This document shows positions 10,636 to 39,305 of a stretch of DNA of 64,000 nt, piece after piece; within the stretch, counting starts at the first letter, position 1, and the number at the start of each line of letters is the position of its first letter. The stretch is taken from the UHGV virus genome UHGV-1558314; one strand, written 5' to 3'. Origin of the DNA: a virus. Made by a program: the position numbers and the translations under genes. The notes below the pieces were generated by a model, which was not told the DNA's origin, searched no databases, and worked only from the letters and a program-made list of their open reading frames with translations.

Positions 10636-10664
10636 ATTATATATTGATATATTACAACATTTGT
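10636..10664 (-). promoter_or_regulatory. conserved phage promoter motif (ATGTTGTAATAT...TATAAT)
   Basis: Minus-sense AAATGTTGTAATATATCAATATATAATATAAAACCTCTACAACAATG; the -10 TATAAT lies about 20 nt before the ATG. Confidence 0.45.
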
Positions 10665-10763: not shown

Positions 10764-11822
10764 TTACTGCTTCAAGCCTGTGAACAGTTCATACTTGAAT
10801 GCAGGCCCTGCTGTGTAAGCCTCAAAGTAGAAGTCACCAATATTGATGCTTGCAATAGCGTCATCGACAGCTTTCTTGTAGCCTACACGTTCAATTGTCT
10901 GCTTATCGCATTTACGCCAATATGTGCTGTGCATCATAAGCGTGGGTGATGCAGCATAGTCTACTGCAAGCTGTTGTTTTGCAGTGTCAATGTGATGTTC
11001 ATAGATGTGCACATCATTGCCAGTCCAAATGAACTCTCTTGCCGCACAGTTAGTCAATGTTGCAACAATATGTGTAAGCAATGCATATGATGCGATATTG
11101 ATGGGCACACCAAGACACATGTCACAACTACGCTGAGTAAGCGCACAGTCAAGCCACATGCTTGGTACTTGAGCAGAATCAAGGCATTCTGCAGAACAAT
11201 CATGCACAAGCATGCTATCATTAGCAATCTGAATTCGTTCTTCAAGAGTCATTGGCTGACAATTGAACTGAAACAGCATATGACATGGCGGCAATGCCAT
11301 CTGAGACATTTGTGCAGGATTCCATGCAGACACGACTTTGTAGCGGCCAGTTGGATTGATGACAATGTCTTTAATGCAAGTTGCAAGTTGGTCATATCCA
11401 CTGTCATTGAAGTTGCGCCACTGATACCCATAGATAGGTCCGCAATCACCATACTCAGGCTTGCTGAATTTTGTGTTATGCAGTTCTGTGCACCAAGTTT
11501 CAAAGTCGACATCTTCACCTGGATGCAGTTTACGCCAATGACGATATGCATCCTGATGCCAGAACTTTGTAATACCAAGCGTGTCAAGCGTTTTTACATT
11601 TGTATCACCTGACATAAACCACAGAAGTTCTCCAATGACACCCTTGACAAACATTCTCTTGGATGTCAACAGTGGAAAGCCTTTACGCAAATCAAATCGC
11701 ATTGATTCTACAAACAATGACTTTGTGCGAGGCATGTTTTCACGAGCAGGCTCCTTAAATCTGCCATGTTCAATAACATTGTTAAGTACTCTCAAGTACT
11801 CAGTGTCGTGTTTGATATTCAT
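10764..11822 (-). CDS. thyA: thymidylate synthase (ThyA family, with insertion)
   Basis: FPLLTSKR, VVSAWNPAQ, catalytic ALPPCHMLFQF, and LGVPINIASYALL with Asn at the base-specificity position (uracil-specific). Confidence 0.8.
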   Translation of the reverse strand: MNIKHDTEYLRVLNNVIEHGRFKEPARENMPRTKSLFVESMRFDLRKGFPLLTSKRMFVKGVIGELLWFMSGDTNVKTLDTLGITKFWHQDAYRHWRKLHPGEDVDFETWCTELHNTKFSKPEYGDCGPIYGYQWRNFNDSGYDQLATCIKDIVINPTGRYKVVSAWNPAQMSQMALPPCHMLFQFNCQPMTLEERIQIANDSMLVHDCSAECLDSAQVPSMWLDCALTQRSCDMCLGVPINIASYALLTHIVATLTNCAAREFIWTGNDVHIYEHHIDTAKQQLAVDYAASPTLMMHSTYWRKCDKQTIERVGYKKAVDDAIASINIGDFYFEAYTAGPAFKYELFTGLKQ

Positions 11823-15047: not shown

Positions 15048-15929
15048 CTATCGTTTGAATTTGATGAAGTGTTCAGCATCGAGGCCCTCAAATACATACG
15101 GGTCAAGAGTTTCCCAGAAGTTTGAGTATGTCGTTGTCTTTGCAATGCTTGTTTGCTTTGACAAGTTCATATTTGGGTAGCCAAGCATTGCATAGTGTCG
15201 CTCATATATGTGCATTGACGTCGCATTATGCACATATGCGCCAAGCTTAAGACCAAGTTCATTTGCGACAAGTTCTTGCAACAAAGTGAATGCAAACTGG
15301 TCGTTGCAAAAGCCCCAAATGACATCATTGCTTCGCATGTATGTTGTCAAGTACAGCTTATCACCACGAACATTGAAAACAAGATTCAATGTGCATGGCA
15401 TGTCTTTGCCAGTGTAGTTTGCATATTGCGGCTCATAAATGCTAATAACTGCTCGTCTTGTGCATTCATGATTTCGCAAACGTTCAATGACATCTGCAAT
15501 CTGCTTGTGCCAAATTGCGCCATACTGTGAATTGACATTGACACCATCGTCGCTGAATTGCTTCCAACGAGGCAAATAACGTTCAATGCATTCAACTGCA
15601 GGATTGGCTGTCATGTACCACGCAAATTCTGCAGCAGCATTGAGCTTTTTCCATGGTCGTACGTCAATCTTGATTTGCCGCTGTGAAGGGTCCTGAATAA
15701 CTACAGACACATTCAGCAATTCTTTTGTTCGAGTCACTGTTTGTGCATTGTTGCCCTTTGATTCTACAAACTCACCTCTACAATGAAGTTCATACAAAAT
15801 TGAGCGAAATGCTTCTGTTGCAGTGTTTTCAATGATTGTCGTCTGTTGATAACATAAATTTGACGACAATGCTTCAGCATCATTGTACTTTATGCTGTCA
15901 TTGTCATAAGGTGAATTTTTTGTGTGCAT
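15048..15929 (-). CDS. deoxycytidylate 5-hydroxymethylase (T4 gp42-like, ThyA fold)
   Basis: Catalytic Cys in DMPCTLNLVF; YMRSNDVIWGFCNDQFAF closely resembles gp42 NMRSNDVVFGFRNDYAW, with Asp at the position equivalent to ThyA Asn177 / gp42 Asp179. Confidence 0.7.
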   Translation of the reverse strand: MHTKNSPYDNDSIKYNDAEALSSNLCYQQTTIIENTATEAFRSILYELHCRGEFVESKGNNAQTVTRTKELLNVSVVIQDPSQRQIKIDVRPWKKLNAAAEFAWYMTANPAVECIERYLPRWKQFSDDGVNVNSQYGAIWHKQIADVIERLRNHECTRRAVISIYEPQYANYTGKDMPCTLNLVFNVRGDKLYLTTYMRSNDVIWGFCNDQFAFTLLQELVANELGLKLGAYVHNATSMHIYERHYAMLGYPNMNLSKQTSIAKTTTYSNFWETLDPYVFEGLDAEHFIKFKR

Positions 15930-21341: not shown

Positions 21342-21358
21342 TCTAAATGAGATTTAGA
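21342..21358 (-). promoter_or_regulatory. palindromic leader element TCTAAATGAGATTTAGA just upstream of the Mre11-Rad50 start codon
   Basis: Same 17-bp palindrome as at 14388-14404, at -3 to -19 from the ATG. Confidence 0.5.
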
Positions 21359-21386
21359 TTATATGTTGATATTGTACAACATGCAA
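21358..21386 (-). promoter_or_regulatory. sigma-70-like promoter TTGCAT-N17-TATAAT with conserved TTGTACAA core
   Basis: Minus-sense TTGCATGTTGTACAATATCAACATATAAT, about 18 nt upstream of the ATG at 21339. Confidence 0.55.
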
Positions 21387-21418
21387 AATGCACTTGCATT
21401 TTGATACAACGTATGTCA

Positions 21419-21766
21419 TTATTTTGCAAGCATTTTGCTGATTGCATCTATCACAGTTTCACTGAGCAAGTAGTAGACAACGCTTATCAGCAATGATATC
21501 AGTACTGCAGCTGTGATAAATTGCAACGCATTCACAATTGCACGCACAAATGTTATCTGTGTGTTGTATGCAAGCACTATGCAGCATAGCACAATAATGA
21601 CACACCAGACTACAATTGCATATGCAGGCATCAATGAATTTGTCCATATGCAGTACAATACAGTAGTTAGCATCAAAAATGCTATTGCTCTGATGACTGA
21701 CACAATGATGTCTATGTAGAGCTTCATTACACGTAAATGAACTCTTGGCTTATGCGGTTTCATCAT
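21419..21766 (-). CDS. small membrane protein
   Basis: ORF 21419..21829 trimmed to internal Met; hydrophobic segments IIVSVIRAIAFLMLTTVLYCIW, AIVVWCVIIVLCCIVLAY, AAVLISLLISVVYYLL. Confidence 0.4.
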   Translation of the reverse strand: MMKPHKPRVHLRVMKLYIDIIVSVIRAIAFLMLTTVLYCIWTNSLMPAYAIVVWCVIIVLCCIVLAYNTQITFVRAIVNALQFITAAVLISLLISVVYYLLSETVIDAISKMLAK

Positions 21767-23001
21767 GACTTTATGTACAATTCTGCAAGTTGTCTGGTGT
21801 ACAATCGTGGATTGTGATATGCTTTCCAATATGCAGTAGACTTTATTGCAGCAAGAATCTCATCATAATGTTTGACTGCTTTTGCTACAACTTCATCAAG
21901 TACATGCAAATCTTCTACACTAACAAGCAGCCATTTTTCTACAATGTCAATGAATTCTTGATTGCAATTAAAGCCATATTTGTAGTTGCAAGTGTCAAGT
22001 ACAAGTGGGATGCAGTCATTTGTCAGTGCTTCAAAAAATCTACGAAGACTGAAACAATTCTCATCATATGATGGAATGCTTAATGTAAACTTGGCAGTCT
22101 TGATGAGTTGCAAATACTCTTCGTATGGAATCAGAGGACCATTGTGCTTCCACTGATTGTTATGTCGTCTTGTTGTGTACTTGAACAAAAACTTTGAACT
22201 GTCAAGCTCACAAAGATGGTCCATGCGTAAAATGTAGTTATAGCGGTCTCTTCTATCAGGCCAACTGTCAGTCATTGCAAACACAAAGTCTCTTTGCTTG
22301 TCACATTTTGCTGACATACCTCTATGCTGACACATGCAGTACCAATATTGCTGCGATGGACTGAACTCGAACTTTGAGTGATGCTCACTGCCATCTTTGC
22401 ATTGTTGAACGTAAATATTGTCAGGCACAAAGTGAAAGTAGAAATGTCGAATTTGCAAGCCGTCAATGTAGTCAAGCTTATGCTGCAATGGGTCCTCACA
22501 GAAATTGTAACACTGAATGCGTTTTGCTGCAGCATACTCAGCAACTATGAATGTGCACACCCATTGCAATGCGATGTCTTCACTCTTCAAAAAGTCAACA
22601 AGTGGCTCATTTGGATGCGCTTTGCATTCATTGAACATTTTGTACCACTTGCATTGCTCCATGTCATACTTGGAGACTGTATTGCCATTAAAAAATGACA
22701 CAGTATCAATTTTGAATGCCTCAAGTTGTTTATGCACAATGTCGATTGCTTGTGCATATGTGACAGTCTCATCAGACATTATTTGTGCAAACTTGATTGG
22801 ATGCGCATGCAAATTTGCAATTGTGTCTGCTGACATTTTGCGCTGTGTATGATAATCGACATACAAAAACTGACACTTGTCTGTAAGCAATTCAAGCATT
22901 GCTACAGATTTCCATCGAATTGCTTGAAAGAAATTGAAGTGCGCAGTTTGAAAAATGAGATGCGTAGGCTTGTCAGAATGAGTCAAAGTTTGCATGGACA
23001 A
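21763..23001 (-). CDS. putative DNA glycosyltransferase, GT-B-like (paralog A1)
   Basis: Paralogous to 26026..27582 (shared EDPLQHKL[D/N]YID, SPSQQYWY, IPSYDENCFSLRRFFEALTNDCIPLV). The C-terminal S-L-R-x-F-x-E...P-L-V patch resembles the catalytic region of phage beta-glucosyltransferase. Family assignment is from memory. Confidence 0.45.
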   Translation of the reverse strand: MSMQTLTHSDKPTHLIFQTAHFNFFQAIRWKSVAMLELLTDKCQFLYVDYHTQRKMSADTIANLHAHPIKFAQIMSDETVTYAQAIDIVHKQLEAFKIDTVSFFNGNTVSKYDMEQCKWYKMFNECKAHPNEPLVDFLKSEDIALQWVCTFIVAEYAAAKRIQCYNFCEDPLQHKLDYIDGLQIRHFYFHFVPDNIYVQQCKDGSEHHSKFEFSPSQQYWYCMCQHRGMSAKCDKQRDFVFAMTDSWPDRRDRYNYILRMDHLCELDSSKFLFKYTTRRHNNQWKHNGPLIPYEEYLQLIKTAKFTLSIPSYDENCFSLRRFFEALTNDCIPLVLDTCNYKYGFNCNQEFIDIVEKWLLVSVEDLHVLDEVVAKAVKHYDEILAAIKSTAYWKAYHNPRLYTRQLAELYIKS

Positions 23002-24158
23002 ATGTCGCAGTTATGTTGATGTTTGTGTTTATTTATGAAGTCATATGTCACTGCAAAAAAGTGCTTTGCAATGTCATATCGAGTTTTCAAATATGCTGCT
23101 TGTCGTTCACAAAATGCTGCATAAATATCTGGGTGTTGTTTGAATGCTGCAATGCGTTGCTGTACTTGTTCTGCAGAATGCACATATGACACTTTGCTCA
23201 AATATACATCATCTGCAAATAATCGTTTGTCTTTGTCAACTGCGCAATCAACAAAAGTTGCAATTCGTGCAACAATTGCTTCACCGACACGATTTGGTAT
23301 TAGCCCATATTGCTCATATTGCTGTTCGCCGATAGCAATGTGTGCTGCTGCATATGACATTGCATATGGCACACTATAAAATGGCACACTAAAATCAAAT
23401 GAACAATTTGACTGCAGCAATTGTGTTTGTGCATCAGACAATCTACTTGTCAAGTTGCCTGTATATTTGTGCTCACCAAGAAAACTTGAGCGACAGCCTG
23501 AATCTACATAGTATCGAATGACTTTGTTTATGCGACTGTCAGATAGCATATGCCAATCTCTTGTAGCATATATCAAGTCTACTGTTTTTGCGCCAATATG
23601 ACGAGGCTCTATCGCAACATTGCTGTATGTTGGCAGCATAAACAATGGCAGCCATTTGACATTGTTGAACACTGAATGCTCATTTGACAAATTCATGCAC
23701 TGGCTAAGTTCAAGTACTGGCTCATCATACACGCCATGTAGCTCAACTCTGCCTGCATGCACAAAGTTGACACGCTTAAATGGAAATCGCATATCAGTGC
23801 AAACTGTCATTCTTGCTGCAATAGACATTCGCCACATAGCATGCAGCTTAACAACTGCTTCTGCTTGAGGTCGAGGCAACATATTTAGCAAATCAATCCA
23901 GCCGCCCCACAAAATCCAAACATCATTTGAACAGATGTTGAATTGCAAACTCAATATGTCTTCTACTGTTGTAGCAATAATGTCATGCCCATTGATGCTT
24001 GCAAGGTGTTTTCGTTGATTTGCAATAATAATGACTTGACTGAATGGAGACTCTGGAAATGACACAAGCGCTTTTGCAAACAACACGGGTTCTTGCGACA
24101 CCAAGTTGTTTGAGTATGGGTCGATTATGCAATCAAGCTTGTGTATGAAGAGTCTCAT
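22983..24158 (-). CDS. hypothetical DNA-modification-associated protein (paralog B1)
   Basis: Paralogous to 27579..28745 (similar N-termini MRLFIHKLD / MSKLFILKFD; shared L[L/I]PNR[W/V]-x-E-x-[V/I] near C-terminus). Sits immediately upstream of A1, as B2 does of A2. Confidence 0.4.
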   Translation of the reverse strand: MRLFIHKLDCIIDPYSNNLVSQEPVLFAKALVSFPESPFSQVIIIANQRKHLASINGHDIIATTVEDILSLQFNICSNDVWILWGGWIDLLNMLPRPQAEAVVKLHAMWRMSIAARMTVCTDMRFPFKRVNFVHAGRVELHGVYDEPVLELSQCMNLSNEHSVFNNVKWLPLFMLPTYSNVAIEPRHIGAKTVDLIYATRDWHMLSDSRINKVIRYYVDSGCRSSFLGEHKYTGNLTSRLSDAQTQLLQSNCSFDFSVPFYSVPYAMSYAAAHIAIGEQQYEQYGLIPNRVGEAIVARIATFVDCAVDKDKRLFADDVYLSKVSYVHSAEQVQQRIAAFKQHPDIYAAFCERQAAYLKTRYDIAKHFFAVTYDFINKHKHQHNCDICPCKL

Positions 24159-24889
24159 TTTGCAGATGATTCAAAAAATTTGTAGACATCGCAGTTAGCA
24201 ATGTGGTCATTCCAAGCATCTTCAGAGTCTGCAACAAAGCCACAATGACAGCGTTTTGGCTGCCAAACTGGTTCAACTACTGCAGGCATTGCTTCTTCAA
24301 TAGTGTTTGCAGGTTCATTATCTGCTGGCAATACTTCAACGTCTTCAACTTGTGCTGCATCTTGTTGTGCACGCTGCTCAATGACATTGCCCTCAAAGTC
24401 AAACTGAATGCCAGCTTGTTCTGCTTTTGTACGATTATTACGAGCTACGAACAAATACGCAAAGATGAATTCGACAAGCGCTATGGCAAGTGACTTCAGT
24501 GCATTGACAAGAAGCATGATGCCTGTTGATAAATGGCCGTCAAAGCTCAAAAACACGAACACACATGTAAAGCATGACATAAACACTGCAATCAGTGGAA
24601 TGTTCTTGTATTTTGGCAACAAATCAGAGTTGACTGATGTAAGCAACACAACGAATTGATAACCTATTGCAAGCCAATAGTCGCCAAACACTGCATAGAT
24701 ATGCGTAGTGATGCCAATAAGAAATGTGATAGTCACAATCATAATGAGCAACACACTTGTCAGAAAGTCTGCAATAGAATTGCTGAGCTTGTCATACCAG
24801 TGTTTGTTGACAATTGACGTGTTGGCTACGCGCACTTTACTAAGTGCATCTATGCCGCTTTTGATATTTGATTGTGCTTTCATACACAT
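24155..24889 (-). CDS. membrane protein with C-terminal Cys/His cluster
   Basis: Four hydrophobic segments; C-terminal RCHCGFV...HIANCDVY could bind zinc. Confidence 0.45.
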   Translation of the reverse strand: MCMKAQSNIKSGIDALSKVRVANTSIVNKHWYDKLSNSIADFLTSVLLIMIVTITFLIGITTHIYAVFGDYWLAIGYQFVVLLTSVNSDLLPKYKNIPLIAVFMSCFTCVFVFLSFDGHLSTGIMLLVNALKSLAIALVEFIFAYLFVARNNRTKAEQAGIQFDFEGNVIEQRAQQDAAQVEDVEVLPADNEPANTIEEAMPAVVEPVWQPKRCHCGFVADSEDAWNDHIANCDVYKFFESSAK

Positions 24890-25030
24890 ATAACGTTATA
24901 TCATATCTACACACAAAGCAAATGCTACTGCAAGTGCAGCCATAATTGCATATACGACTATCGATGCAGTATAATCTGATTCAGGATTCCACTTATCAGG
25001 TGTGTTAAGCTTGTGATACTTGTCTCGTCT

Positions 25031-25082
25031 CATCTTGAGTCAAAAAATGATGGCTGCTGCTACATTTTGTGAAATCATGTGC
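25031..25082 (-). promoter_or_regulatory. hairpin plus U-tract (possible attenuator or terminator) between promoter and gene 24155..24889
   Basis: 12-bp inverted repeat GATGGCTGCTGC / GCAGCAGCCATC with 20-nt loop, followed on the minus strand by TTTTTT. Confidence 0.4.
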
Positions 25083-25124
25083 AGCAGCCATCTGGCAGGT
25101 TTCTTGCTTTGTAAAGCTTGGATA

Positions 25125-25153
25125 GAGGATGGATTTTATATGTTGATATTGTA
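25125..25153 (-). promoter_or_regulatory. sigma-70-like promoter TTGCAT-N17-TATAAA (second copy of conserved motif)
   Basis: Minus-sense TTGCATGTTGTACAATATCAACATATAAA; spacer identical to the copy at 21358-21386. Confidence 0.5.
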
Positions 25154-25195
25154 CAACATGCAAAATGTATTTGCATTTTGATACAACATATATTG

Positions 25196-25411
25196 TCATT
25201 TTGCACAGTCTGATGCAATTAAATCTTTGTCAAAGCATTCATCTATAATGTCTTCAATAAGATACGCTTCGACATTGTTAAGCTTCAAGATATCTACGAG
25301 TTTTGCTTTGATATCGCAAGCTAATGCAGATTCGACTGTATGCAATATGACTGATGATACGACATGCTTGTCTGTCATCATTTGTAATTGCTGTGGTGTT
25401 ACTCTACTCAT
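25196..25411 (-). CDS. hypothetical small protein (71 aa)
   Basis: ORF track; 4-nt overlap with the upstream kinase gene. Confidence 0.35.
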   Translation of the reverse strand: MSRVTPQQLQMMTDKHVVSSVILHTVESALACDIKAKLVDILKLNNVEAYLIEDIIDECFDKDLIASDCAK

Positions 25412-25980
25412 GCGCCAAGTTCAGCTAAGCATTTCAACACATTGTCTTGCAGACTTGCATTGTTGTCAATTTCGACAATATGCAATGGTGAGTTCTTTCG
25501 CCACTCATCATATGCAGCAATCATTTCATTGCGTTTGCTGACATCAATGTTGACATCACCGCAAAAATTATCGACAAAATCTGGCACAACATCACGCTTG
25601 CATAAGAACACTACGTGCGGCAATGTTGCAAGCTTCTTTTCATATGCTTCAAAGAATGCTTGATGCTTATCAGTGTGCAGCTCTTTGTAAAGCGTTGTGT
25701 TGAAGATTTGATGCGTGATGAATGAACGGTCACACAAAAACGTTGCTTTGCCAAAGCCTTGAGAGTCATTTCCAATGAACTCTAAGAAGAAGCGCCAATC
25801 ATAAAAGAACGCTTCATTGAGGTCCCAAGGTTCGGGCATTGGGTCATCACCTGACTCATGCTGCTGCCACCAAGAACGAGATGTTCGTTTGCAATTGATA
25901 AACCATGGGCGCCACTTCATCAATTCATTGATGAGTGTTGTTTTGCCTGAAGCTTCTACACCTTCAAATATCGCTATCAT
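25408..25980 (-). CDS. P-loop deoxynucleoside monophosphate kinase (thymidylate kinase-like)
   Basis: N-terminal IAIFEGVEASGKTTLI (Tmk-type P-loop) and CDRSFITHQ (DR[Y/S]-like motif). Confidence 0.6.
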   Translation of the reverse strand: MIAIFEGVEASGKTTLINELMKWRPWFINCKRTSRSWWQQHESGDDPMPEPWDLNEAFFYDWRFFLEFIGNDSQGFGKATFLCDRSFITHQIFNTTLYKELHTDKHQAFFEAYEKKLATLPHVVFLCKRDVVPDFVDNFCGDVNIDVSKRNEMIAAYDEWRKNSPLHIVEIDNNASLQDNVLKCLAELGA

Positions 25981-26025
25981 TGTGTATTATGTTTGATTTT
26001 TGATTACAGTACAACGTAGTTATGC

Positions 26026-27582
26026 TCATTGCACTTCTACGAATGGCTCTTTCAACACAAAGCTGTCACCATTGCAACATGCGGCTGAGCCATCGTCTGC
26101 ATCAAGTGCGCATGACATATCAGACTTGCAGAACTTGCAATATGAACATGACCATGCATGACTCATAAAGTTGTTTGCTTCACAAATTACACAGCGCTCA
26201 TGTGAAAGTGTATTGTCGCAATTGTCACAAGACTTCTTGATTGGCACATCTTTATTGATATATGCAAGATGCAATGCAATATCATACACAAAGTCACCCG
26301 TATATTGCTGAATGAAATCAGTGTGCCACAACTCTTTTAACAATTGTGTATGTCTATATGGCTGAACAATGTCTTCAAGATGCTGCAAGTCATCATCGCT
26401 AACCATGAGCTTCTTAATGACAAACTGTTTGAACTGCGGCCATCTGTCAAACATATAGAGTTTGCATGAGTTGTGCACAAGTGGAACACAGCCAAGCACA
26501 ATGCTTTCACAGAATCTACGCAAACTAAAACAGTTTGCATCATATGACGGCACAATCAATGTGAATCTGCTATGCTTGATGAGTTCAAGGTATGTGTCAT
26601 ATGGCAGTAGCTTGTCTGACAATGGCTGCTGTTGCTTGTCCCTGCTGAAAAATCTGAACACAATGCCTTTATCAATTGCATCTTGATTGTGCAGATGCAT
26701 GAGTTTGTTGATGAGTTCTGTGCGTTCAGTTTTGTCTCGCCAAGTATTCGTCAATGCAAATGCAAAATTCAGTCGCTTGTCATCAAACGTCGCTTCAATG
26801 TCATCCCAAGTTTTGTCATGCAAATACCAGTATTGCTGTGATGGGCACCATCCATAATATGCAATAGCGTCTTGTTCTGCTGTAACGTCATACACATATG
26901 CAGAATTGTATTCAAGGCCAAGCCCTTTGACATTGTTGCAGTCATGAAAGTACCAATGCTGCACTTTGAATATCTTTGATGCACTGAATGCGCTTTCATA
27001 TGGCCCTGAATAGCGATAGTCAATGTAATTGAGCTTGTGCTGCAATGGGTCTTCGACAAAGTTGTTTATGACTGTGCCTTGTTGTTTGCCATTAGTCTTG
27101 CGAGCATTCAATGCAATATTGTACTGCATAATGACTGACAGCATCTCATACACTACATACATGAGTGCTTTGTAGACTGAGCCTGCTGCGTCAATTAGCG
27201 GCAAATCACGTTTGACTGATGCAGTACCAAATGTCTTGCAATATGCAGAAAATGTATCAAGTTCTGCCTGTTGAAATGAATTGCATGCGCCATTGAATAT
27301 GTTGAATGTTGCAATGTAGCTCATATTACAAGATGTCATTGACATATCAAGACGCTTCATAATGTCAGCAATGCGACATTGAGCAAAATCTGACACATCA
27401 ACATATTTGACATGATGACCTGATGCAGTCAAGCCAACTGCGACTTCTTTCATTTGTGGCACAAAGCCTACTACAATGAACAAGTCATCTTTGTTTGCTC
27501 GTTCAAACATTGCTGCACTTTTCCAAGTCAATGAATTGAAAAAGTCTATGTAGCCAGTCTGTGTGATGATATGTGTTCTCAT
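26026..27582 (-). CDS. putative DNA glycosyltransferase, GT-B-like (paralog A2) with Cys-rich C-terminal tail
   Basis: Paralog of 21763..23001 (VEDPLQHKLNYID, CPSQQYWY, VPSYDANCFSLRRFCESIVLGCVPLV). Extra C-terminal Cys cluster (CDNCDN...CVICE...CSYCKFCK). Confidence 0.45.
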   Translation of the reverse strand: MRTHIITQTGYIDFFNSLTWKSAAMFERANKDDLFIVVGFVPQMKEVAVGLTASGHHVKYVDVSDFAQCRIADIMKRLDMSMTSCNMSYIATFNIFNGACNSFQQAELDTFSAYCKTFGTASVKRDLPLIDAAGSVYKALMYVVYEMLSVIMQYNIALNARKTNGKQQGTVINNFVEDPLQHKLNYIDYRYSGPYESAFSASKIFKVQHWYFHDCNNVKGLGLEYNSAYVYDVTAEQDAIAYYGWCPSQQYWYLHDKTWDDIEATFDDKRLNFAFALTNTWRDKTERTELINKLMHLHNQDAIDKGIVFRFFSRDKQQQPLSDKLLPYDTYLELIKHSRFTLIVPSYDANCFSLRRFCESIVLGCVPLVHNSCKLYMFDRWPQFKQFVIKKLMVSDDDLQHLEDIVQPYRHTQLLKELWHTDFIQQYTGDFVYDIALHLAYINKDVPIKKSCDNCDNTLSHERCVICEANNFMSHAWSCSYCKFCKSDMSCALDADDGSAACCNGDSFVLKEPFVEVQ

Positions 27583-28745
27583 GATTTGAATGTTTGTTCA
27601 AGAATTGTGTAACACTGCACAATCATTACTGCAAGAGCTTTTTGCTGTGCTTGTTTGCAATCATCAAAATTTGTGGGCGCAGTGCGTACGCGTGTTTTGC
27701 TATTAAGTGTCGCAAATGTCGCGTAGTCATCGAAGCCTATAATGTCAGCAAATAGGGCAATTGGCTTATAATCTACAAGTATGTTGCAGCAATTTGCAAG
27801 TACGCCTTCAACCCATCGATTTGGCAGCAAGTCTGCTTGCACATACAATGAATCACCAACTACAAGATTGTATGCCGACTGTGACATTACACGCGGCATT
27901 GCATCGTATGTGACTTTGTATTTAAGTGTAAAGTTTGGTGCTGCTGATTTAATCGCAGACAAAATTGTGTCATCAAGATATGATGTTATGAGACACGTGT
28001 CGCACATATGTATGACAAATTGTTCAATCACACTTCTACGATACTCGTCAAGATATGTGAAACCTGCACAACTTGCACAGCATGCATATTGCTGCTTTAT
28101 GTCAGCAAAGCTACGCACATGAGCTTCAATTGCATTTTGCATCGTTACTTGTAGTTTAAGCAATCTTGGCTCTTTAATGTATTGAAGCTTCAATGCATTG
28201 ACTGCTGCAATGATTTGCAATGGGGCAAACACACATTGAGACTCATCAAGCCAAGCGTATTTGAGATTTTTGTGCTGGCATAGATGCGTAATGTTGTCTT
28301 TTTGTGATTCTAAGTACTCTTTGTAATTGTGCAATCGCTTTGTCAATGTGCATTCTTTATCAAAGTCGAATCGCAAATCAGTTGTTAGTGTAAATTTGCG
28401 AGCGTTTGACAAACACCATGTTTTGAATGCATTCCACAGAACATCTTGCTGAAATTCTGAGCAATGTTCAAGAGCAGCCTTTGAACCTTGCCAGAATATT
28501 GCGCAATCATCTGATTTTGCGCACTTCAGCATATCTTGCCATGCATGTATGTTATTGATAATATGCACATTATCATACACAAGCTCATCAAGTATTGCAT
28601 GCTTGTTCTCAGGGTCGCCAAACACATATACAGCATCAAACATTGTCTGCACAAAACCTGCAAATGCAATAGGTTCTGTATGCTTAAGATGCTGTACGTC
28701 TGAACGCACGCATGTGTCAAATTTCAAAATGAATAGTTTGCTCAT
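27579..28745 (-). CDS. hypothetical DNA-modification-associated protein (paralog B2)
   Basis: Paralog of 22983..24158; same position relative to its A partner. Confidence 0.4.
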   Translation of the reverse strand: MSKLFILKFDTCVRSDVQHLKHTEPIAFAGFVQTMFDAVYVFGDPENKHAILDELVYDNVHIINNIHAWQDMLKCAKSDDCAIFWQGSKAALEHCSEFQQDVLWNAFKTWCLSNARKFTLTTDLRFDFDKECTLTKRLHNYKEYLESQKDNITHLCQHKNLKYAWLDESQCVFAPLQIIAAVNALKLQYIKEPRLLKLQVTMQNAIEAHVRSFADIKQQYACCASCAGFTYLDEYRRSVIEQFVIHMCDTCLITSYLDDTILSAIKSAAPNFTLKYKVTYDAMPRVMSQSAYNLVVGDSLYVQADLLPNRWVEGVLANCCNILVDYKPIALFADIIGFDDYATFATLNSKTRVRTAPTNFDDCKQAQQKALAVMIVQCYTILEQTFKS

Positions 28746-29442
28746 ATACTTTGCAATTATCTATTACATGTTGATATTGTACTTCATCTATGATGTGATT
28801 TGCAATGACACCATATGAGGCGTCATACATTGGCATCTTCTCATATGACAATGCTGCGTCAAGATTGCATATCACATAATTGCAATGCACAATGTCATCT
28901 ACATTGTCACTAACTGCTACGATATTGACACACTTTGCAAGAAATGCATCATCAAAGTCTACTTGATTGCATGCAACCTCATAATCTGCTGCGCTTCTTG
29001 GGTACCAATATAACTCAATGCCAGCACTACTAAGTAGTCGCAAGCCATCTATGTGATGATACAAGTCAACAAAATGCACTTGCTTAACGCCTGCTTGCAA
29101 AATAAGCTTTGCGCAATCAATGCATGGACTGTATGTTACATACAGCACTGCGTCATTTGCGGTCGCATTGCCATATTTGCACAGCTTCATCAATGCGTTT
29201 GATTCTGCATGCAAAACTTCTTTGTTGGTTTTGATACCTGCCGATGTTGCATGCTCACAACAATTTGACATGCCAGTTGGCATGCCATTGTAGCCATCTG
29301 AAATTATGCAACCATTTTTTACAAGCAATGCGCCAACTTTTGCTCGCTGAGCATATGAATTTAATGACCAAAGCTCAGCCATTTTAAGATATATGAGATT
29401 TCGTTGAAACTGCTTTGTTTCAGACCAAGTTAGCCATTTCAT
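28717..29442 (-). CDS. dCMP deaminase (zinc-dependent cytidine/deoxycytidylate deaminase family)
   Basis: Zinc-ligand motifs LHAESNAL (H-A-E) and YSPCIDCAKL (P-C-x-x-C). Confidence 0.8.
   Translation of the reverse strand: MKWLTWSETKQFQRNLIYLKMAELWSLNSYAQRAKVGALLVKNGCIISDGYNGMPTGMSNCCEHATSAGIKTNKEVLHAESNALMKLCKYGNATANDAVLYVTYSPCIDCAKLILQAGVKQVHFVDLYHHIDGLRLLSSAGIELYWYPRSAADYEVACNQVDFDDAFLAKCVNIVAVSDNVDDIVHCNYVICNLDAALSYEKMPMYDASYGVIANHIIDEVQYQHVIDNCKVYEQTIHFEI
28763..28791 (-). promoter_or_regulatory. partial copy of conserved promoter motif inside the 3' end of the dCMP deaminase gene
   Basis: Minus-sense GAAGTACAATATCAACATGTAAT, about 18 nt upstream of the B2 start codon at 28745. Confidence 0.35.
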
Positions 29443-29446
29443 ATGC

Positions 29447-30829
29447 TTACAGTGAGTTTATAATTTTGATAAAGTCTGTTACAATGTTTGTATGCAACTC
29501 AATGAGATAGTTGTCTTGTAATGTCATAAGCTCATCAAGTTCATCTACACTTAATGACTTGAAGACTTCTGCACAATGCTTGGCATTTTTGATGTGTGCG
29601 ACTTTATGATACTTGATAAAGTCAGGACACACACAATTATTCACGTACATACAAGGCAAGCCTGCAAGCATTGATTCAGTTGCTCTGAATGTAATTGCGT
29701 TGCATTGTTTCATATTCTCTTCACACACAATGTATGCAAAGTCGAACTGCGACAAGTATGTTAACATGTCAAAATACTTGATTGTGCCATTATAGACATG
29801 TGGCATATCAATGTCGATATTGCCGACAACATGAGTTTCGATGTCTGCGCAGCCAAGCAAATCAATGACTTCTTGTTTGCGTTCAGCGCACATGTCATTC
29901 CAAGCAACCATCGGCATTGCAGTAGTCAACTTGCCTGATTGCAATTTTGCTAAACGTTTTTCGTTATGTGATGCATACAATGGAATGCCTTCAAGTCTTG
30001 CATGCTGAATTGTGTTGACATTGATTTCTGTCAGCATTGACAACGCATTATGCATGTTCTGTGCTTGTGTGACAACTGTCATCTTTTTGCAGCGCAATCT
30101 AAAGTTTGCAATGTGTGGCACGAGTCGTAAATCATACCACAGCCATACAATGTCACCCTTCCATGACTCAATAAGCTGCTTGTGCTGTTTGTAGATGACT
30201 GACTGACTCATCAAGTCATTCATTGCTGAGCATACAATGTACAACACACCATATTTGTCAATTGAGTGCTGCACATAGTCAACTGAGCAGCATAGCACAT
30301 CTTTGTCGAAAAGTTTTGGGTCATGCACTTCTGCATCATCTACAATAAGATGTGCCTTGTATTGATGCTGCTTTGTTGCATCAATGATGCGAGCAATTGC
30401 AAAGCATTCTCTACTTTGAATGTCTGTCTTATCTTGTCGTGGTTGGTCTTGTGTTCGTACAGGATATGCAGGCTTAAGTATTACAGGCACAAAATGTGTT
30501 TTTGCAGAATATGGTGCATCTACTGCAGCAAACTCCGCGTTGCATCGTTGTGAATGCAGATGTCGTGCATATGATTGCAACAATTCATGAATCATTGCAA
30601 TGTACTCTTTCAATTCAAACAGCTCGTGTACAGTTGCGTTTGTTATGTCGACTACGACAGTTTGTCGCACAATTGGATACACACAAATAACGTAATCATT
30701 ATATGATAGTGGAATGCCTATAAATGCTGAGCATCTGTTTCGAAGCCATGCAATGCAATCAGCGTCAAACACAATTTCATATTGCTGCTGCAAAGCATTT
30801 AATTGCGCTATAATCAAATCATTGTGCAT
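29447..30829 (-). CDS. putative glycosyltransferase-like protein (family C)
   Basis: C-terminal ITFRATESMLAGLPCMYV resembles the GT-B acceptor/donor motif (R-x-x-E...G-x-P). Confidence 0.4.
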   Translation of the reverse strand: MHNDLIIAQLNALQQQYEIVFDADCIAWLRNRCSAFIGIPLSYNDYVICVYPIVRQTVVVDITNATVHELFELKEYIAMIHELLQSYARHLHSQRCNAEFAAVDAPYSAKTHFVPVILKPAYPVRTQDQPRQDKTDIQSRECFAIARIIDATKQHQYKAHLIVDDAEVHDPKLFDKDVLCCSVDYVQHSIDKYGVLYIVCSAMNDLMSQSVIYKQHKQLIESWKGDIVWLWYDLRLVPHIANFRLRCKKMTVVTQAQNMHNALSMLTEINVNTIQHARLEGIPLYASHNEKRLAKLQSGKLTTAMPMVAWNDMCAERKQEVIDLLGCADIETHVVGNIDIDMPHVYNGTIKYFDMLTYLSQFDFAYIVCEENMKQCNAITFRATESMLAGLPCMYVNNCVCPDFIKYHKVAHIKNAKHCAEVFKSLSVDELDELMTLQDNYLIELHTNIVTDFIKIINSL

Positions 30830-30845
30830 ATTCGTATTGTTTTAT

Positions 30846-30874
30846 CATATATGAATATATTGTACAACATGTAT
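30846..30874 (-). promoter_or_regulatory. conserved promoter motif (ATACAT-N17-TATATG variant)
   Basis: Minus-sense ATACATGTTGTACAATATATTCATATATG, 16 nt upstream of the ATG at 30829. Confidence 0.45.
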
Positions 30875-30970
30875 TGAGCTTTTGCACAACATATGTTGTT
30901 AAAATATCATCATTGTACAACATAAAGCGCATATTTGCACGTTGTGTTGCTAAAAATATTGTTATTGTAC

Positions 30971-37337: not shown

Positions 37338-37398
37338 GTTATTTGTATATGTATTGTGCAACATGCATATTCATATTGTATATGAATATGATACAACA
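37338..37398 (-). promoter_or_regulatory. two tandem copies of the conserved promoter motif upstream of the SSB gene
   Basis: Minus-sense TTCGCATGTTGTATCATATTCATATACAAT and ATATGCATGTTGCACAATACATATACAAAT. Confidence 0.45.
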
Positions 37399-37416
37399 TG
37401 CGAATATCATTTGCAC

Positions 37417-38553: not shown

Positions 38554-39305
38554 TTCACTTCAGGTTTTGCTTGCTTGGCCAACTCAGCTTCAGCATTGAA
38601 CTCTTTGCCCTCAGCTTTCATTGTTTCAGCATAAGTCTTTTCATCAGTGTAACGTTCTACGTCATCACCAAGCAGTTTTGCAACTTCATCATCTGCTTCA
38701 AACAATGGCTGTGGATTGTCATCATTGTCATCTTTGAGTTGCTCAAATGTGCTGTTATGCTTTTCTGCAATTTTGATGAGGTCAACGATTGAACGAGTTA
38801 CGAGTTCACCATTGATGCCTGACTGTTGTTCAGATTGACCAGAGCCTTGTTGCAATTCTGCTTGAGTTGCTCGAACATTATTATTGAGTGATGCAAGTAC
38901 ATTGGGAAGAGTTCGACAATATGATATATACTGCTGAACCAACGACATTGCATCATTCTGCAGTTTGATGAGAAATGCAAACTCACCCATGCCTCCGCCT
39001 TGTGCATCAATGCGCTCGAATACTGAATCAAGTGCATGCATTGCATAGAACACTTGTTTGCAAAGTAAATTGATGTTTGTCTTCTCCATCTCGATTGATG
39101 CATCGATAAACGGTGACTTAACATCTGCTGCTATGCACAATTTGCGAACTTCGTCAACATATTTTGAACACTTGTCAAGTGTCTTGTCAAGTTTGCTTCG
39201 GTCAAACTGCTTGTAAACTTCTAATGCATCGCTTACTTCTGCAGCATCCAATATTGCATTTGCTGCAGCCAATTCTGATTCTCTGCTCATCTCAAAATGG
39301 TCCAA
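38550..39305 (-). CDS. hypothetical protein (251 aa)
   Basis: ORF track. Confidence 0.45.
   Translation of the reverse strand: MDHFEMSRESELAAANAILDAAEVSDALEVYKQFDRSKLDKTLDKCSKYVDEVRKLCIAADVKSPFIDASIEMEKTNINLLCKQVFYAMHALDSVFERIDAQGGGMGEFAFLIKLQNDAMSLVQQYISYCRTLPNVLASLNNNVRATQAELQQGSGQSEQQSGINGELVTRSIVDLIKIAEKHNSTFEQLKDDNDDNPQPLFEADDEVAKLLGDDVERYTDEKTYAETMKAEGKEFNAEAELAKQAKPEVK

What the first reader, a model, noticed from the sequence alone, without database searches (positions are those of the whole stretch)
21763..30829. Expanded, tandem-duplicated set of putative DNA glycosyltransferases around the kinase and deaminase genes
Five large proteins here fall into paralog groups: A1/A2 (shared EDPLQHKL-x-YID, SPSQQYWY, PSYD-x-NCFSLRRF-x-E...PLV), B1/B2 (shared N-termini and L[L/I]PNR-x-x-E) and a single C with a GT-B-like R-x-x-E...G-x-P patch. 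The B gene immediately precedes its A partner in both copies, so a two-gene module has been duplicated. T4 uses two glucosyltransferases; five candidates suggest a more elaborate or combinatorial sugar decoration of hmC, possibly an uncharacterised glycan.
Basis: partly seen in the sequence, partly recalled or inferred. Interest (0 to 1): 0.72.

Follow-up and report, generated by a model that had tools for sequence, protein, structure and literature searches.

The report
Five phage DNA sugar-transferase genes
An uncharacterised large phage carries five intact sugar-transferase genes beside the genes that make hydroxymethylcytosine, so it very probably coats its DNA with an unusually elaborate, still unknown sugar decoration to escape host nucleases.

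Summary
All five ORFs are intact on the minus strand at the stated coordinates. A1/A2 are paralogues (30% identity, E=5e-47), as are B1/B2 (24%, E=8e-14). In both copies B lies directly upstream of A with overlapping stop and start codons.

- B1, B2 and C all belong to one superfamily of distant T4 beta-glucosyltransferase homologues. The catalytic Asp100 and the Arg195, Arg269 and Glu272 equivalents are conserved.
- A1/A2 form a separate family. The AlphaFold model (pLDDT 88.6) has a GT-B fold, and the C-terminal domain resembles GT47/CgeB-like enzymes.
- The B-A duplication is ancient. It is conserved in divergent metagenomic relatives, the A and B trees are congruent, and all five genes are under purifying selection.
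- The divergent thymidylate-synthase homologue at 15048-15929 has the T4 gp42 signature (L143D, D169 kept, N177D). This predicts 5-hydroxymethyl-dCMP, not 5-hydroxy-dCMP or hydroxymethyl-dUMP.

Multi-enzyme glycosylation of phage cytosine derivatives is already known (T2/T6, RB69, DLP3, RL38J1, methyltransferase/TET clusters). This is therefore a new variant of a known kind. The set is unusually large and organised as paired modules, and the A family has no characterised relative. The sugars, linkages and order of action are unknown.

The parts
29447..30829 (-). C: BGT-like (GT63-like) glycosyltransferase with a ~120-aa N-terminal extension. Conserved E141, D233-L-R235, R317 and R382-x-x-E385.
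   Evidence: No single-sequence Pfam, PHROG or NCBIfam hit. A 12-member family alignment hits T4 BGT at E=1.2e-10, while the D100A mutant chain scores 5.7 bits lower. hhalign against T4 BGT: 95.8%, E=7.5e-9, 283 columns. hhalign against the B family: 97.7%, E=2e-12. dN/dS 0.12. The AF2 model failed (pLDDT 36).
28717..29442 (-). dCMP deaminase, which supplies dUMP for the canonical ThyA.
   Evidence: Pfam dCMP_cyt_deam_1 5.5e-21; PHROG dCMP deaminase 5e-44.
27579..28745 (-). B1: BGT-like glycosyltransferase, the fast-evolving paralogue of B2. Motifs: E24, T-D123-L-R125, R236/R237, N-R310-W-V-E313.
   Evidence: BLASTP to B2 E=8e-14. It is a member of the B-family alignment whose profile hits T4 BGT at E=4e-7. 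On its own against BGT it is not significant (E=0.058, but in the correct register). Orthologues occur in L007 and L016. dN/dS 0.20.
26026..27582 (-). A1: GT-B glycosyltransferase of the A family, with a 78-aa C-terminal tail holding 10 Cys.
   Evidence: 30% identity to A2, E=5e-47. Pfam Exostosin_GT47 hit at 9.7e-6, below the gathering score. Orthologues occur in L001, L007 and L016. dN/dS 0.11.
25408..25980 (-). Tmk/dNK-like P-loop nucleotide kinase, inferred to be the hydroxymethyl-dCMP kinase.
   Evidence: Weak Pfam AAA_28, Thymidylate_kin and dNK hits. tblastn gives 35% identity to the 'thymidylate kinase' of Chryseobacterium phages MA9V-1/2, where the gene overlaps a cytosine-type TS homologue. 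The gene is conserved downstream of A1 in L001, L007 and L016.
25196..25411 (-). 71-aa ORF of unknown function, overlapping the kinase stop codon.
   Evidence: ORF list. A 72-aa gene occupies the same position in L016. No family hit.
24155..24889 (-). Predicted membrane protein with hydrophobic segments, an acidic linker and a C-terminal Cys/His motif. It overlaps the B2 start by 4 nt. Its role is unknown.
   Evidence: Sequence. Only weak Pfam hits to membrane families. Homologues lie directly upstream of B2 in L001 (253 aa) and L007 (265 aa). No non-synonymous change against the UViG.
22983..24158 (-). B2: BGT-like glycosyltransferase. Motifs: E23, T-D122-M-R124-F-P-F, R209, P-N-R290-V-G-E293.
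   Evidence: PHROG beta-glucosyltransferase 1.4e-7. The family profile hits T4 BGT 1bgt at E=4e-7 over residues 97-331. dN/dS 0.07.
21763..23001 (-). A2: GT-B glycosyltransferase of the A family. The likely true start is the ATG at 22995.
   Evidence: AF2 pLDDT 88.6, pTM 0.85. Foldseek PDB hits include GT1 enzymes, UDP-GlcNAc 2-epimerases, HMW1C, OGT, EXTL3 and the phage HY126 glycosyltransferase. BFVD hits are phage and giant-virus GT-B enzymes. Pfam GT47 and Glyco_trans_1_2 hits are below the cut-off. dN/dS 0.03.
15048..15929 (-). Divergent thymidylate-synthase homologue, predicted to be a dCMP hydroxymethylase that makes 5hm-dCMP.
   Evidence: Best PDB hit is MilA CMP hydroxymethylase at 1.5e-22. 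The alignment with E. coli ThyA, T4 gp42, RB69 gp48, SP8 and SeSz-1 shows Cys146 kept, L143D, D169 kept and N177D, the same as T4 gp42.
10764..11822 (-). Canonical thymidylate synthase (ThyA) with insertions.
   Evidence: Pfam 4.3e-76. L143, D169 and N177 are retained.
30841..30886 (-). Promoter/operator-like repeat (core ATGTTGTACAATAT on the minus strand) upstream of C.
   Evidence: Repeat family D1. The motif is enriched: 15 matches against 1.9 expected.
28758..28803 (-). A more degenerate copy of the same repeat, just upstream of the B1 start.
25130..25205 (-). The same repeat upstream of the membrane-protein/B2/A2 block.
21353..21428 (-). The same repeat downstream of A2 and just upstream of the fused SbcCD-like gene.

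Best explanation
The region is the sugar-decoration part of a T4-style cytosine hypermodification pathway in an uncharacterised phage of about 175 kb.

Precursor steps, inferred from sequence signatures:
1. The divergent thymidylate-synthase homologue (15048-15929) converts dCMP to 5-hydroxymethyl-dCMP.
2. The Tmk-like kinase inside the cluster phosphorylates it.
3. The phage replisome incorporates 5hmC into DNA.
4. The dCMP deaminase and a canonical ThyA keep dTTP supplied.

Sugar transfer, inferred from homology: three distant homologues of T4 DNA beta-glucosyltransferase (C, B1, B2) would flip out 5hmC and transfer a sugar from a host NDP-sugar onto its hydroxyl. They would use the conserved Asp (equivalent to BGT Asp100) as catalytic base and the Arg/Glu set to hold the UDP.

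Chain extension, inferred from gene linkage only: each B gene is translationally coupled to an A gene, which encodes a second, unrelated GT-B enzyme. The A enzyme most likely extends the B-installed sugar, as the T2/T6 beta-alpha transferase does when it makes gentiobiosyl-hmC.

Two diverged B-A modules plus C would then give di- or oligosaccharide, and probably heterogeneous, decoration of 5hmC. That decoration would shield the DNA from restriction enzymes, CRISPR nucleases and modification-dependent defences.

Shown here: the paralogy, the GT-B fold of A2, the homology of B and C to T4 BGT with catalytic residues kept, the TS signature, conservation and purifying selection. Inferred: the acceptor, the donor sugars, the order of action and the biological role.
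For: Homology and fold:
- Paralogy.
- The B profile hits T4 BGT at E=4e-7. TDMRFPF aligns to TD100IRLPF, the B Arg aligns to R195, and PNRVGEA aligns to LR269VWE272T (residue numbers counted from that alignment).
- The C profile hits BGT at E=1.2e-10 and loses 5.7 bits against the D100A mutant chain. hhalign C versus BGT: 95.8%, 283 columns, with E141 aligned to E22. C versus B: 97.7%.
- A2 has a GT-B fold. Its PSYD-x-NCFSLRRF-x-E-x5-C-[IV]-P-L block gives weak GT47 and Glyco_trans_1_2 hits.

Precursor pathway:
- The TS signature matches T4 gp42 and differs from RB69 gp48 (D169N) and from SP8/SeSz-1 (N at 177). The diagnostic positions are those given in PMC13326640.

Conservation:
- The same gene order is found in a 97%-identical 174.6-kb UViG and in divergent relatives L016, L007, L001 and L004.
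- The A1/A2 and B1/B2 trees are congruent.
- dN/dS is 0.03-0.20 for all five genes.

Context:
- The cluster sits among replication and recombination genes: gp32-like SSB, helicases and fused SbcCD.
- It shares a repeated upstream motif with those genes.

Precedent for multi-GT glycans on phage cytosine derivatives: PMC13326640, bioRxiv 10.1101/2023.12.21.572611 and PMC6024577.
Against: - There is no chemical evidence for any modified base or sugar.
- No dCTPase, T4 gp1-type dNMP kinase or NDP-sugar biosynthesis gene was found in the 64-kb window. The rest of the genome was not examined.
- The A family has no sequence relation to T4 alpha- or beta-GT, no PDB sequence hit, and Pfam scores below the curated cut-offs. 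Its acceptor is inferred only from linkage.
- The A2 Foldseek hits with the highest TM-scores include UDP-GlcNAc 2-epimerases, which share the GT-B fold.
- B1 alone is not significantly similar to BGT.
- The structures of B1, B2 and C were not obtained; the C model failed.
- A conserved membrane protein co-transcribed with B2-A2 is not explained by a purely DNA-directed pathway.
Confidence: 0.62

Rival explanations
1. Only the three BGT-like enzymes (C, B1, B2) act on DNA. They would be alternative mono-glycosylases with different anomers, sugars or sequence contexts, like T4 alpha-GT and beta-GT. The A proteins would glycosylate something else, such as a virion protein, host envelope polymer or small molecule, or would be NDP-sugar-modifying enzymes of the GT-B/epimerase fold that prepare the donor for their partner B.
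For: The A family is unrelated in sequence to any DNA glycosyltransferase. UDP-GlcNAc 2-epimerases give the highest TM-scores (0.46-0.48) among the top PDB hits. A conserved membrane protein is co-transcribed with B2-A2. Many phage GT-B genes are not DNA-directed (bioRxiv 10.1101/2023.12.21.572611).
Against: There is no Pfam Epimerase_2 hit at E<=1. The only family hits are to glycosyltransferase C-terminal domains (GT47, Glyco_trans_1_2), and an invariant R-R-F-x-E block is present. B and A are tightly and repeatedly coupled with overlapping codons, and their phylogenies are congruent across five divergent phages. The predicted first galactosyltransferase of RL38J1 likewise has a UDP-GlcNAc 2-epimerase as its top structural hit.
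Confidence: 0.22
2. The acceptor base is not 5hmC. It would be 5-hydroxycytosine, as in RB69, DLP3 and RL38J1, or 5-hydroxymethyluracil, and the GTs would decorate that base.
For: The TS homologue's nearest solved relative, MilA, is also the top structural hit of the proven 5hodCMP synthases. Its nearest phage relatives by tblastn include annotated dUMP hydroxymethylases. A Tmk-like 'nucleotide kinase' next to glycosyltransferases is a feature of the 5hoC clusters.
Against: The residue at the ThyA-D169 position is Asp, not the Asn that PMC13326640 reports in all tested 5hodCMP synthases. The N177 position is Asp (cytosine type), unlike SP8 and SeSz-1, which have Asn. The L143 position is Asp. 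Together these give the pattern RSND..GF.xND, identical to T4 gp42. A separate canonical ThyA and a dCMP deaminase provide ordinary dTMP.
Confidence: 0.1
3. The extra paralogues are redundant or decaying copies left by duplication, so the phage effectively uses only one or two transferases, as T4 does.
For: B1 is absent from relative L001. It is the most divergent gene between the window and the 97% relative. B1 alone does not reach significance against BGT.
Against: All five ORFs are intact with their catalytic motifs. dN/dS is 0.03-0.20. Both modules persist at 30-50% protein identity in L007 and L016. The divergent C-terminal half of B1 keeps the N-R-W-V-E motif.
Confidence: 0.06

Closest known systems
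Bacteriophage T4 DNA beta-glucosyltransferase (CAZy GT63; PDB 1BGT, 1J39, 1NZD)
   Same: The B and C family profiles match it significantly over nearly its whole length. Residues aligned and conserved are Glu22, Asp100-x-Arg102, Arg195 and Arg269-x-x-Glu272. The genomic context also matches: a dCMP hydroxymethylase and replication genes.
   Different: The similarity is detectable only with family profiles; no single window protein matched a PDB or Pfam entry. There are three diverged paralogue families in one genome instead of one gene. C has a 120-aa N-terminal extension, and B2 has a Cys/His C-terminal motif. Donor sugar and anomeric outcome are unknown. The role of Asp100 as catalytic base is from my own knowledge of the D100A study; it is consistent with the mutant chain 1nzd scoring lower.
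T2/T6 two-step glucosylation (alpha-GT, then the beta-glucosyl-HMC-alpha-glucosyl transferase that gives gentiobiosyl-hmC), and the T4 alpha-GT/beta-GT pair
   Same: More than one GT-B enzyme acts on the same 5hmC DNA, and a second enzyme can extend the first sugar (PMC6024577). T4 a-gt sits next to genes 47/46, just as A2 sits next to the fused SbcCD homologue.
   Different: The A family shows no sequence relation to T4 alpha-GT. There are five enzymes, arranged as two translationally coupled B-A modules plus C.
Glycosylated 5-hydroxycytosine clusters of RB69, DLP3 and Rhizobium phage RL38J1 (Lee et al., NAR 2026, PMC13326640)
   Same: All combine a TS homologue, a Tmk-like nucleotide kinase and several GT-B glycosyltransferases that build mono- to tri-saccharides on a C5-oxygenated cytosine. 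GT assignments there were also made through AlphaFold plus Foldseek.
   Different: The TS homologue here lacks the D169N signature, so 5hmC rather than 5hoC is predicted. No NDP-arabinose or galactofuranose synthesis genes were seen in the window. The GTs there are GT4-like (BshA, MshA or PimA-like), not BGT-like or GT47-like.
Methyltransferase/5mYOX(TET)-glycosyltransferase gene clusters of metaviromes (Pyle et al., bioRxiv 10.1101/2023.12.21.572611)
   Same: Phage GT-A or GT-B enzymes, some resembling T4 beta-GT, install mono-, di- or tri-saccharides on 5hmC. Secondary GTs extend the glycan. GT-B types associate with ThyS and dCMP deaminase.
   Different: Here 5hmC is made before replication by a TS homologue, not after replication by a methyltransferase plus TET. 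There are five GTs, against up to three sugars reported there.
GT47 exostosin-type and CgeB/Glyco_trans_1_2-type GT-B glycosyltransferases
   Same: The C-terminal domains of A1 and A2 match these Pfam models around the conserved S-x-R-x-x-E...C-[IV]-P block. EXTL3 appears among the fold hits.
   Different: Scores are below the Pfam gathering thresholds (25.5 and 21.6 bits against 33.4). The N-terminal domain and the EDPLQHKL and PSQQYWY motifs are specific to this small family, which has 12 members among 5.8 billion clustered proteins. No GT47 member is known to me to act on DNA-linked sugars.

Membership tests
T4 beta-glucosyltransferase-like DNA glycosyltransferases (GT63) | Statistically significant sequence homology to T4 BGT over most of its length | tested here: met
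   B-family profile: E=4e-7, BGT residues 97-331. C-family profile: E=1.2e-10, residues 45-336. hhalign: 95.8%, residues 18-334. B1 is linked only transitively, through B2.
T4 beta-glucosyltransferase-like DNA glycosyltransferases (GT63) | Catalytic Asp (BGT Asp100 in T-D-I-R-L-P-F) conserved | tested here: met
   B2 has D122, B1 has D123 and C has D233. Each is invariant in its family alignment and aligned to D100.
T4 beta-glucosyltransferase-like DNA glycosyltransferases (GT63) | UDP-binding Arg/Glu set (BGT Arg195, Arg269, Glu272) | tested here: met
   B2 has R209, R290 and E293. B1 has R236/R237, R310 and E313. C has R317, R382 and E385. One B1 orthologue (L007) has Lys in place of the Arg269 equivalent.
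T4 beta-glucosyltransferase-like DNA glycosyltransferases (GT63) | GT-B two-Rossmann-domain fold | tested here: inconclusive
   The C model failed (pLDDT 36). The fold is implied by homology only.
T4 beta-glucosyltransferase-like DNA glycosyltransferases (GT63) | Transfers a sugar from UDP-sugar to 5hmC in duplex DNA | not testable with these tools
   Needs enzyme assays or nucleoside mass spectrometry.
GT-B glycosyltransferase superfamily (A1/A2) | Two Rossmann-like domains with the nucleotide-sugar site in the C-terminal domain | tested here: met
   A2 AF2 model: pLDDT 88.6, pTM 0.85. Foldseek probability is 1.0 to GT1, OGT, HMW1C, EXTL3 and a phage GT, and to viral GT-B proteins with TM up to 0.61.
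Pfam Exostosin_GT47 (PF03016) | Score at or above the curated gathering threshold (33.4 bits) | tested here: not met
   A1 scores 25.5 bits and A2 21.6 bits, on the C-terminal domain only. These proteins are GT47-like, not demonstrated GT47 members.
dCMP hydroxymethylase (T4 gp42 type) within the thymidylate-synthase superfamily | Catalytic Cys146 present, N177 replaced by Asp (cytosine specificity), L143 replaced by an acidic residue, D169 retained | tested here: met
   Alignments A5 and A6 show ...KDMPC... and ...RSNDVIWGF-CND..., identical in pattern to T4 gp42. The criteria are from PMC13326640.
5-hydroxy-dCMP synthase (RB69 gp48 type) | Asn at the position of E. coli ThyA Asp169 (D169N) | tested here: not met
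   The window protein has Asp at this position. RB69 gp48 has Asn in the same alignment.
Thymidine hypermodification systems (5-hmdU DNA kinase plus aGPT-Pplase) | dUMP-type hydroxymethylase (Asn at 177) and aGPT-Pplase family proteins | tested here: not met
   The TS homologue is cytosine-type. No such family appears among the Pfam hits at E<=1 for any of the nine cluster proteins.

The most novel reading that the evidence does not exclude
The two B-A modules are dedicated two-enzyme assembly lines: a BGT-like base-proximal transferase plus a GT47-like extender, possibly in a physical complex. Each would build a different disaccharide on 5hmC, with C adding a further or alternative sugar. The DNA would then carry a combinatorial or branched glycan more complex than any described on a nucleobase. 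The locally hyper-divergent donor-binding half of B1, and its presence or absence among relatives, would be the footprint of an arms race with glycan-reading defences such as GmrSD-type nucleases and glycosyl-hmC DNA glycosylases.
Probability: 0.25. Interest if true: 0.78.

Novelty: new variant of a known kind. Interest (0 to 1): 0.55.

Why it matters
Sugar-coated cytosines are a main way large lytic phages evade restriction enzymes, CRISPR nucleases and modification-dependent defences. They also hinder sequencing and engineering of such phages.

This lineage shows very distant T4 beta-glucosyltransferase homologues, recognisable only with family profiles, multiplied to three families in one genome. 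Each B copy is paired with a previously unnoticed GT-B family of 12 members among 5.8 billion clustered proteins.

If the predicted pathway is real, it would extend the known chemistry of DNA glycans. It would supply new enzymes for selective 5hmC labelling with sugars other than glucose. It would also offer a tractable case of how glycan-building modules duplicate and diversify on DNA.

Practically, the family profiles built here could annotate similar genes that all standard libraries currently miss.

Tried and rejected
Searches that found nothing:
- Megablast of the 9-kb region against GenBank phages: no match.
- tblastn of A1, B2 and C: only marginal or no hits.
- NCBIfam: nothing for any of the five proteins.
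- A-family profile against PDB sequences: no meaningful hit.
- IMG/VR scans with the A, B and C families returned only one contig, the 97% relative.
- The genome-contig scan found nothing.
- Pfam and PHROG scans of about 40 other window proteins found no dCTPase, no T4 gp1-type kinase and no NDP-sugar genes.

- The C structure prediction from a 2-sequence alignment failed (pLDDT 36). This used the last prediction job, so B1, B2 and C have no models.

Hypotheses considered and rejected:
- My initial suspicion was a thymidine-hypermodification cluster (5-hmdU DNA kinase plus aGPT-Pplases). I rejected it because the TS homologue is cytosine-type and B and C are BGT homologues.
- 5-hydroxycytosine as acceptor was rejected on the D169 signature.
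- A recent tandem duplication was rejected. The DNA-level similarity is limited to one 47-nt motif, and both copies exist in relatives at 30-50% identity.
- A as a relative of T4 alpha-GT or beta-GT: no support.
- A related to B or C: no support.

The sigma-70 promoter and terminator scan was uninformative, with counts at shuffle level.

Full report
**1. What is there**

Between 21763 and 30829 all long ORFs lie on the minus strand and are tightly packed. In order of transcription they are:
- C (29447-30829, 460 aa)
- a dCMP deaminase (28717-29442)
- B1 (27579-28745, 388 aa)
- A1 (26026-27582, 518 aa)
- a P-loop kinase (25408-25980)
- a 71-aa ORF, followed by a 300-nt gap
- a membrane protein (24155-24889)
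- B2 (22983-24158, 391 aa)
- A2 (21763-23001, 412 aa; probably 410 aa from the ATG at 22995)

The deaminase overlaps B1, B1 overlaps A1 by 4 nt, the membrane gene overlaps B2 by 4 nt, and B2 overlaps A2. A1 and A2 are 30% identical (E=5e-47). B1 and B2 are 24% identical (E=8e-14).

**2. What the five proteins are**

Standard libraries say little.
- A1 and A2 give sub-threshold Pfam hits to Exostosin_GT47, and A2 also to Glyco_trans_1_2.
- B2 gives a PHROG 'beta-glucosyltransferase' hit at 1.4e-7.
- B1 and C hit nothing, and NCBIfam has nothing for any of the five.

The families are tiny. Among 5.8 billion clustered proteins there are 12 relatives for A, 5 for B2 and 2 for C. An exhaustive HMMER scan raised the C family to 12.

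B family. A profile of the B family hits T4 DNA beta-glucosyltransferase (1bgt) at E=4e-7 over BGT residues 97-331.

C family.
- A profile of the enlarged family hits the same protein at E=1.2e-10 over residues 45-336. It scores 5.7 bits less against the D100A mutant chain 1nzd.
- hhalign gives 95.8% probability over 283 columns.
- C and B are related to each other at 97.7%, E=2e-12.

In these alignments the family-invariant residues fall on the functional residues of BGT:
- a Glu in the first loop (B2 E23, B1 E24, C E141) on Glu22
- T-D-x-R (B2 D122, B1 D123, C D233) on T-D100-I-R102
- an Arg (B2 R209, C R317) on Arg195
- R-x-x-E (B2 R290/E293, B1 R310/E313, C R382/E385) on Arg269/Glu272

That Asp100 is the catalytic base and that the Arg/Glu residues bind UDP is from my own knowledge of the BGT structural literature. 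The existence of the D100A mutant structure in the PDB is consistent with it. So C is not a separate kind: B1, B2 and C are three diverged branches of one BGT-like superfamily.

A family. It is unrelated in sequence to B, C, T4 beta-GT or T4 alpha-GT.
- The AlphaFold2 model of A2, built on the 12-sequence alignment, is confident (pLDDT 88.6, pTM 0.85).
- It matches GT-B enzymes throughout the PDB: GT1 antibiotic and flavonoid transferases, HMW1C/NGT, OGT, EXTL3, the phage HY126 glycosyltransferase 9iqz, and the fold-related UDP-GlcNAc 2-epimerases. 192 hits have E<=1e-3.
- Among predicted viral structures it matches phage and giant-virus GT-B proteins with TM up to 0.61. These include proteins annotated as DNA beta- or alpha-glucosyltransferases and the glycosyltransferase of Bacillus phage SP-15.
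- The invariant block P-S-Y-D-x-x-C-F-S-L-R-R-F-x-E-x5-C-x-P-L is the part that matches GT47/CgeB-type C-terminal domains.

**3. Which base**

The window holds two thymidylate-synthase homologues. The one at 10764-11822 is a canonical ThyA. The one at 15048-15929 is divergent; its best solved relative is the CMP hydroxymethylase MilA (1.5e-22).

This needed care for two reasons. Lee et al. (NAR 2026, PMC13326640) showed that look-alike enzymes of RB69, DLP3 and RL38J1 make 5-hydroxy-dCMP, marked by Asn at the ThyA-D169 position. In addition, the nearest phage relatives by tblastn include dUMP hydroxymethylases.

I aligned the window protein with E. coli ThyA, T4 gp42, RB69 gp48, SP8, SeSz-1, and a Bacteroides and a Chryseobacterium phage enzyme. 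The window protein reads K-D-M-P-C and R-S-N-D-V-I-W-G-F-C-N-D. That means L143D, D169 retained and N177D, exactly the T4 gp42 pattern. RB69 gp48 has D169N, and SP8 and SeSz-1 have Asn at 177. The predicted product is therefore 5-hydroxymethyl-dCMP.

The cluster kinase is Tmk/dNK-like. Its only phage relatives, in Chryseobacterium phages, overlap a cytosine-type TS homologue. This fits a role as the kinase for the modified dNMP. With the deaminase and ThyA, the nucleotide side resembles T4 (cd, td, 42, 1).

**4. Conservation and history**

| Source | Relation to window | Gene order |
|---|---|---|
| IMG/VR contig (174.6 kb) | 97% identical | identical nine-gene arrangement |
| L016 | C 44% | C, deaminase, B1, A1, kinase |
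| L007 | A2 50% | deaminase, B1, A1, kinase ... membrane protein, B2, A2 |
| L001 | divergent | short C, deaminase, A1, kinase ... membrane protein, B2, A2; no B1 |
| L004 | more distant | a C-like, a B-like and an A-like gene next to the SbcCD homologue |

Neighbour-joining trees separate A1 from A2 clades and B1 from B2 clades with matching internal topology. The B-A unit was therefore duplicated once, long ago, and both copies were kept.

Against the 97% relative, dN/dS is 0.12 (C), 0.20 (B1), 0.11 (A1), 0.07 (B2) and 0.03 (A2). All five genes are functional.

**5. Mechanism proposed**

1. 5hm-dCMP is made by the TS homologue, phosphorylated by the kinase and incorporated into DNA during replication.
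2. The BGT-like enzymes transfer a sugar to the 5-hydroxymethyl group of flipped-out 5hmC.
3. Each A enzyme, translationally coupled to a B enzyme, most likely extends the B-installed sugar, as the T2/T6 beta-alpha transferase does (PMC6024577).
4. C adds an alternative or additional sugar.

The donors are presumably host NDP-sugars, because no sugar-nucleotide genes were found in the window. The remaining ~110 kb of the genome was not examined.

The cluster lies among replication and recombination genes. It shares a repeated, near-palindromic upstream element (ATGTTGTACAATAT) with the SbcCD-like and gp32-like genes. This is consistent with expression alongside DNA metabolism.

Steps 1 and 2 rest on sequence signatures and homology. 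Steps 3 and 4 rest on linkage and analogy only.

**6. Rivals**

- The A proteins may act on a non-DNA acceptor, or be donor-modifying enzymes of the epimerase branch of the GT-B fold. The conserved membrane protein upstream of B2-A2 would fit a non-DNA role. Against this are the GT-type motifs and the repeated B-A coupling.
- The acceptor may be 5hoC or 5hmU. The TS signature argues against this.
- Some copies may be redundant. Purifying selection and conservation argue against this.

**7. Comparison and novelty**

Multi-enzyme glycosylation of C5-oxygenated cytosines in phage DNA is established. Examples are T4, T2 and T6; RB69, DLP3 and RL38J1, with up to three sugars and three GTs; and methyltransferase/TET/GT clusters giving mono- to tri-saccharides.

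What is new here:
- the number of transferases (five)
- three BGT-like families in one genome
- the duplicated, translationally coupled B-A module
- the A family itself, which has no characterised relative

I rate this a new variant of a known kind, of moderate interest. The idea is not surprising to specialists, but the enzymes are invisible to current annotation and the glycan could be new.

Noticed in passing
window 21353-21428, 25130-25205, 28758-28803, 30841-30886, 30910-30923; weaker copies at 37351-37399, 10647-10660, 8687-8700: A repeated 46-70 nt intergenic element has the near-palindromic core ATATTGTACAACAT. There are 15 matches at <=2 mismatches against 1.9 expected. It lies just upstream, on the minus strand, of C, B1, the membrane/B2/A2 block, the fused SbcCD gene and the gp32-like gene. 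It looks like a phage-specific promoter or operator and does not resemble the sigma-70 consensus.
   Followed up: partly
window 27580-28150 (C-terminal half of B1): This stretch is only 74-87% identical in DNA to the IMG/VR relative, while the flanks are about 96% identical. Protein identity is 77% here against 94% in the N-terminal half, and the N-R-W-V-E motif is kept. B1 is also missing in relative L001. This suggests recombinational replacement or fast evolution of the presumed donor-binding domain.
   Followed up: partly
window 17413-21339 (-): A single 1308-aa protein combines an N-terminal Mre11/SbcD-type phosphoesterase domain (Metallophos) with a Rad50/SbcC-type ATPase (AAA_23). In T4 these are the separate genes 47 and 46. 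The fusion is conserved in L001, L004 and L005. As in T4, where a-gt sits beside genes 47/46, a glycosyltransferase gene sits next to it.
   Followed up: no
window 24155-24889 (-): A predicted membrane protein has hydrophobic segments, an acidic linker and a C-terminal C-x-C...H...C motif. It overlaps the B2 start and is conserved directly upstream of B2 in L001 and L007. It shows zero non-synonymous changes against the 97% relative. Its role is unknown, and a DNA-glycosylation pathway does not explain it.
   Followed up: partly
window 26026-26259 (A1 tail) and 22983-23015 (B2 C-terminus): A1 and its orthologue in L016 carry a ~78-aa C-terminal tail with 10 Cys, including several CxxC pairs (weak PHF5-like hit). 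The tail is absent from the L007 and L001 orthologues. All B2-clade family members examined (not B1) end in H-x-C-[DN]-x-C. These are possible small zinc-binding modules.
   Followed up: no
window 10764-11822 (-): The canonical ThyA is 352 aa and carries several insertions relative to E. coli ThyA. The largest are about 20 aa after residue ~85 and about 31 aa before the Q165-R166-S167 region.
   Followed up: no
L006 (Chryseobacterium phage MA9V-2, OR513085.1 116329-118265): The closest phage relative of the cluster kinase overlaps a 447-aa 'thymidylate synthase' that has Asp at the ThyA-N177 position and Asp at D169. This jumbo phage may therefore also make 5hmC. A KDO-8-P phosphatase-like gene lies nearby.
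   Followed up: no
window 46823-47437 (-), 62552-63448 (-), 39287-39901 (-): The window also encodes a BACON-domain protein, a sigma-70-family factor (regions 2 and 4) and a papain-like cysteine protease. Together with the Bacteroidota-phage affinities of the kinase and the TS homologue, these may hint at a Bacteroidota host. The host was not determined.
   Followed up: no
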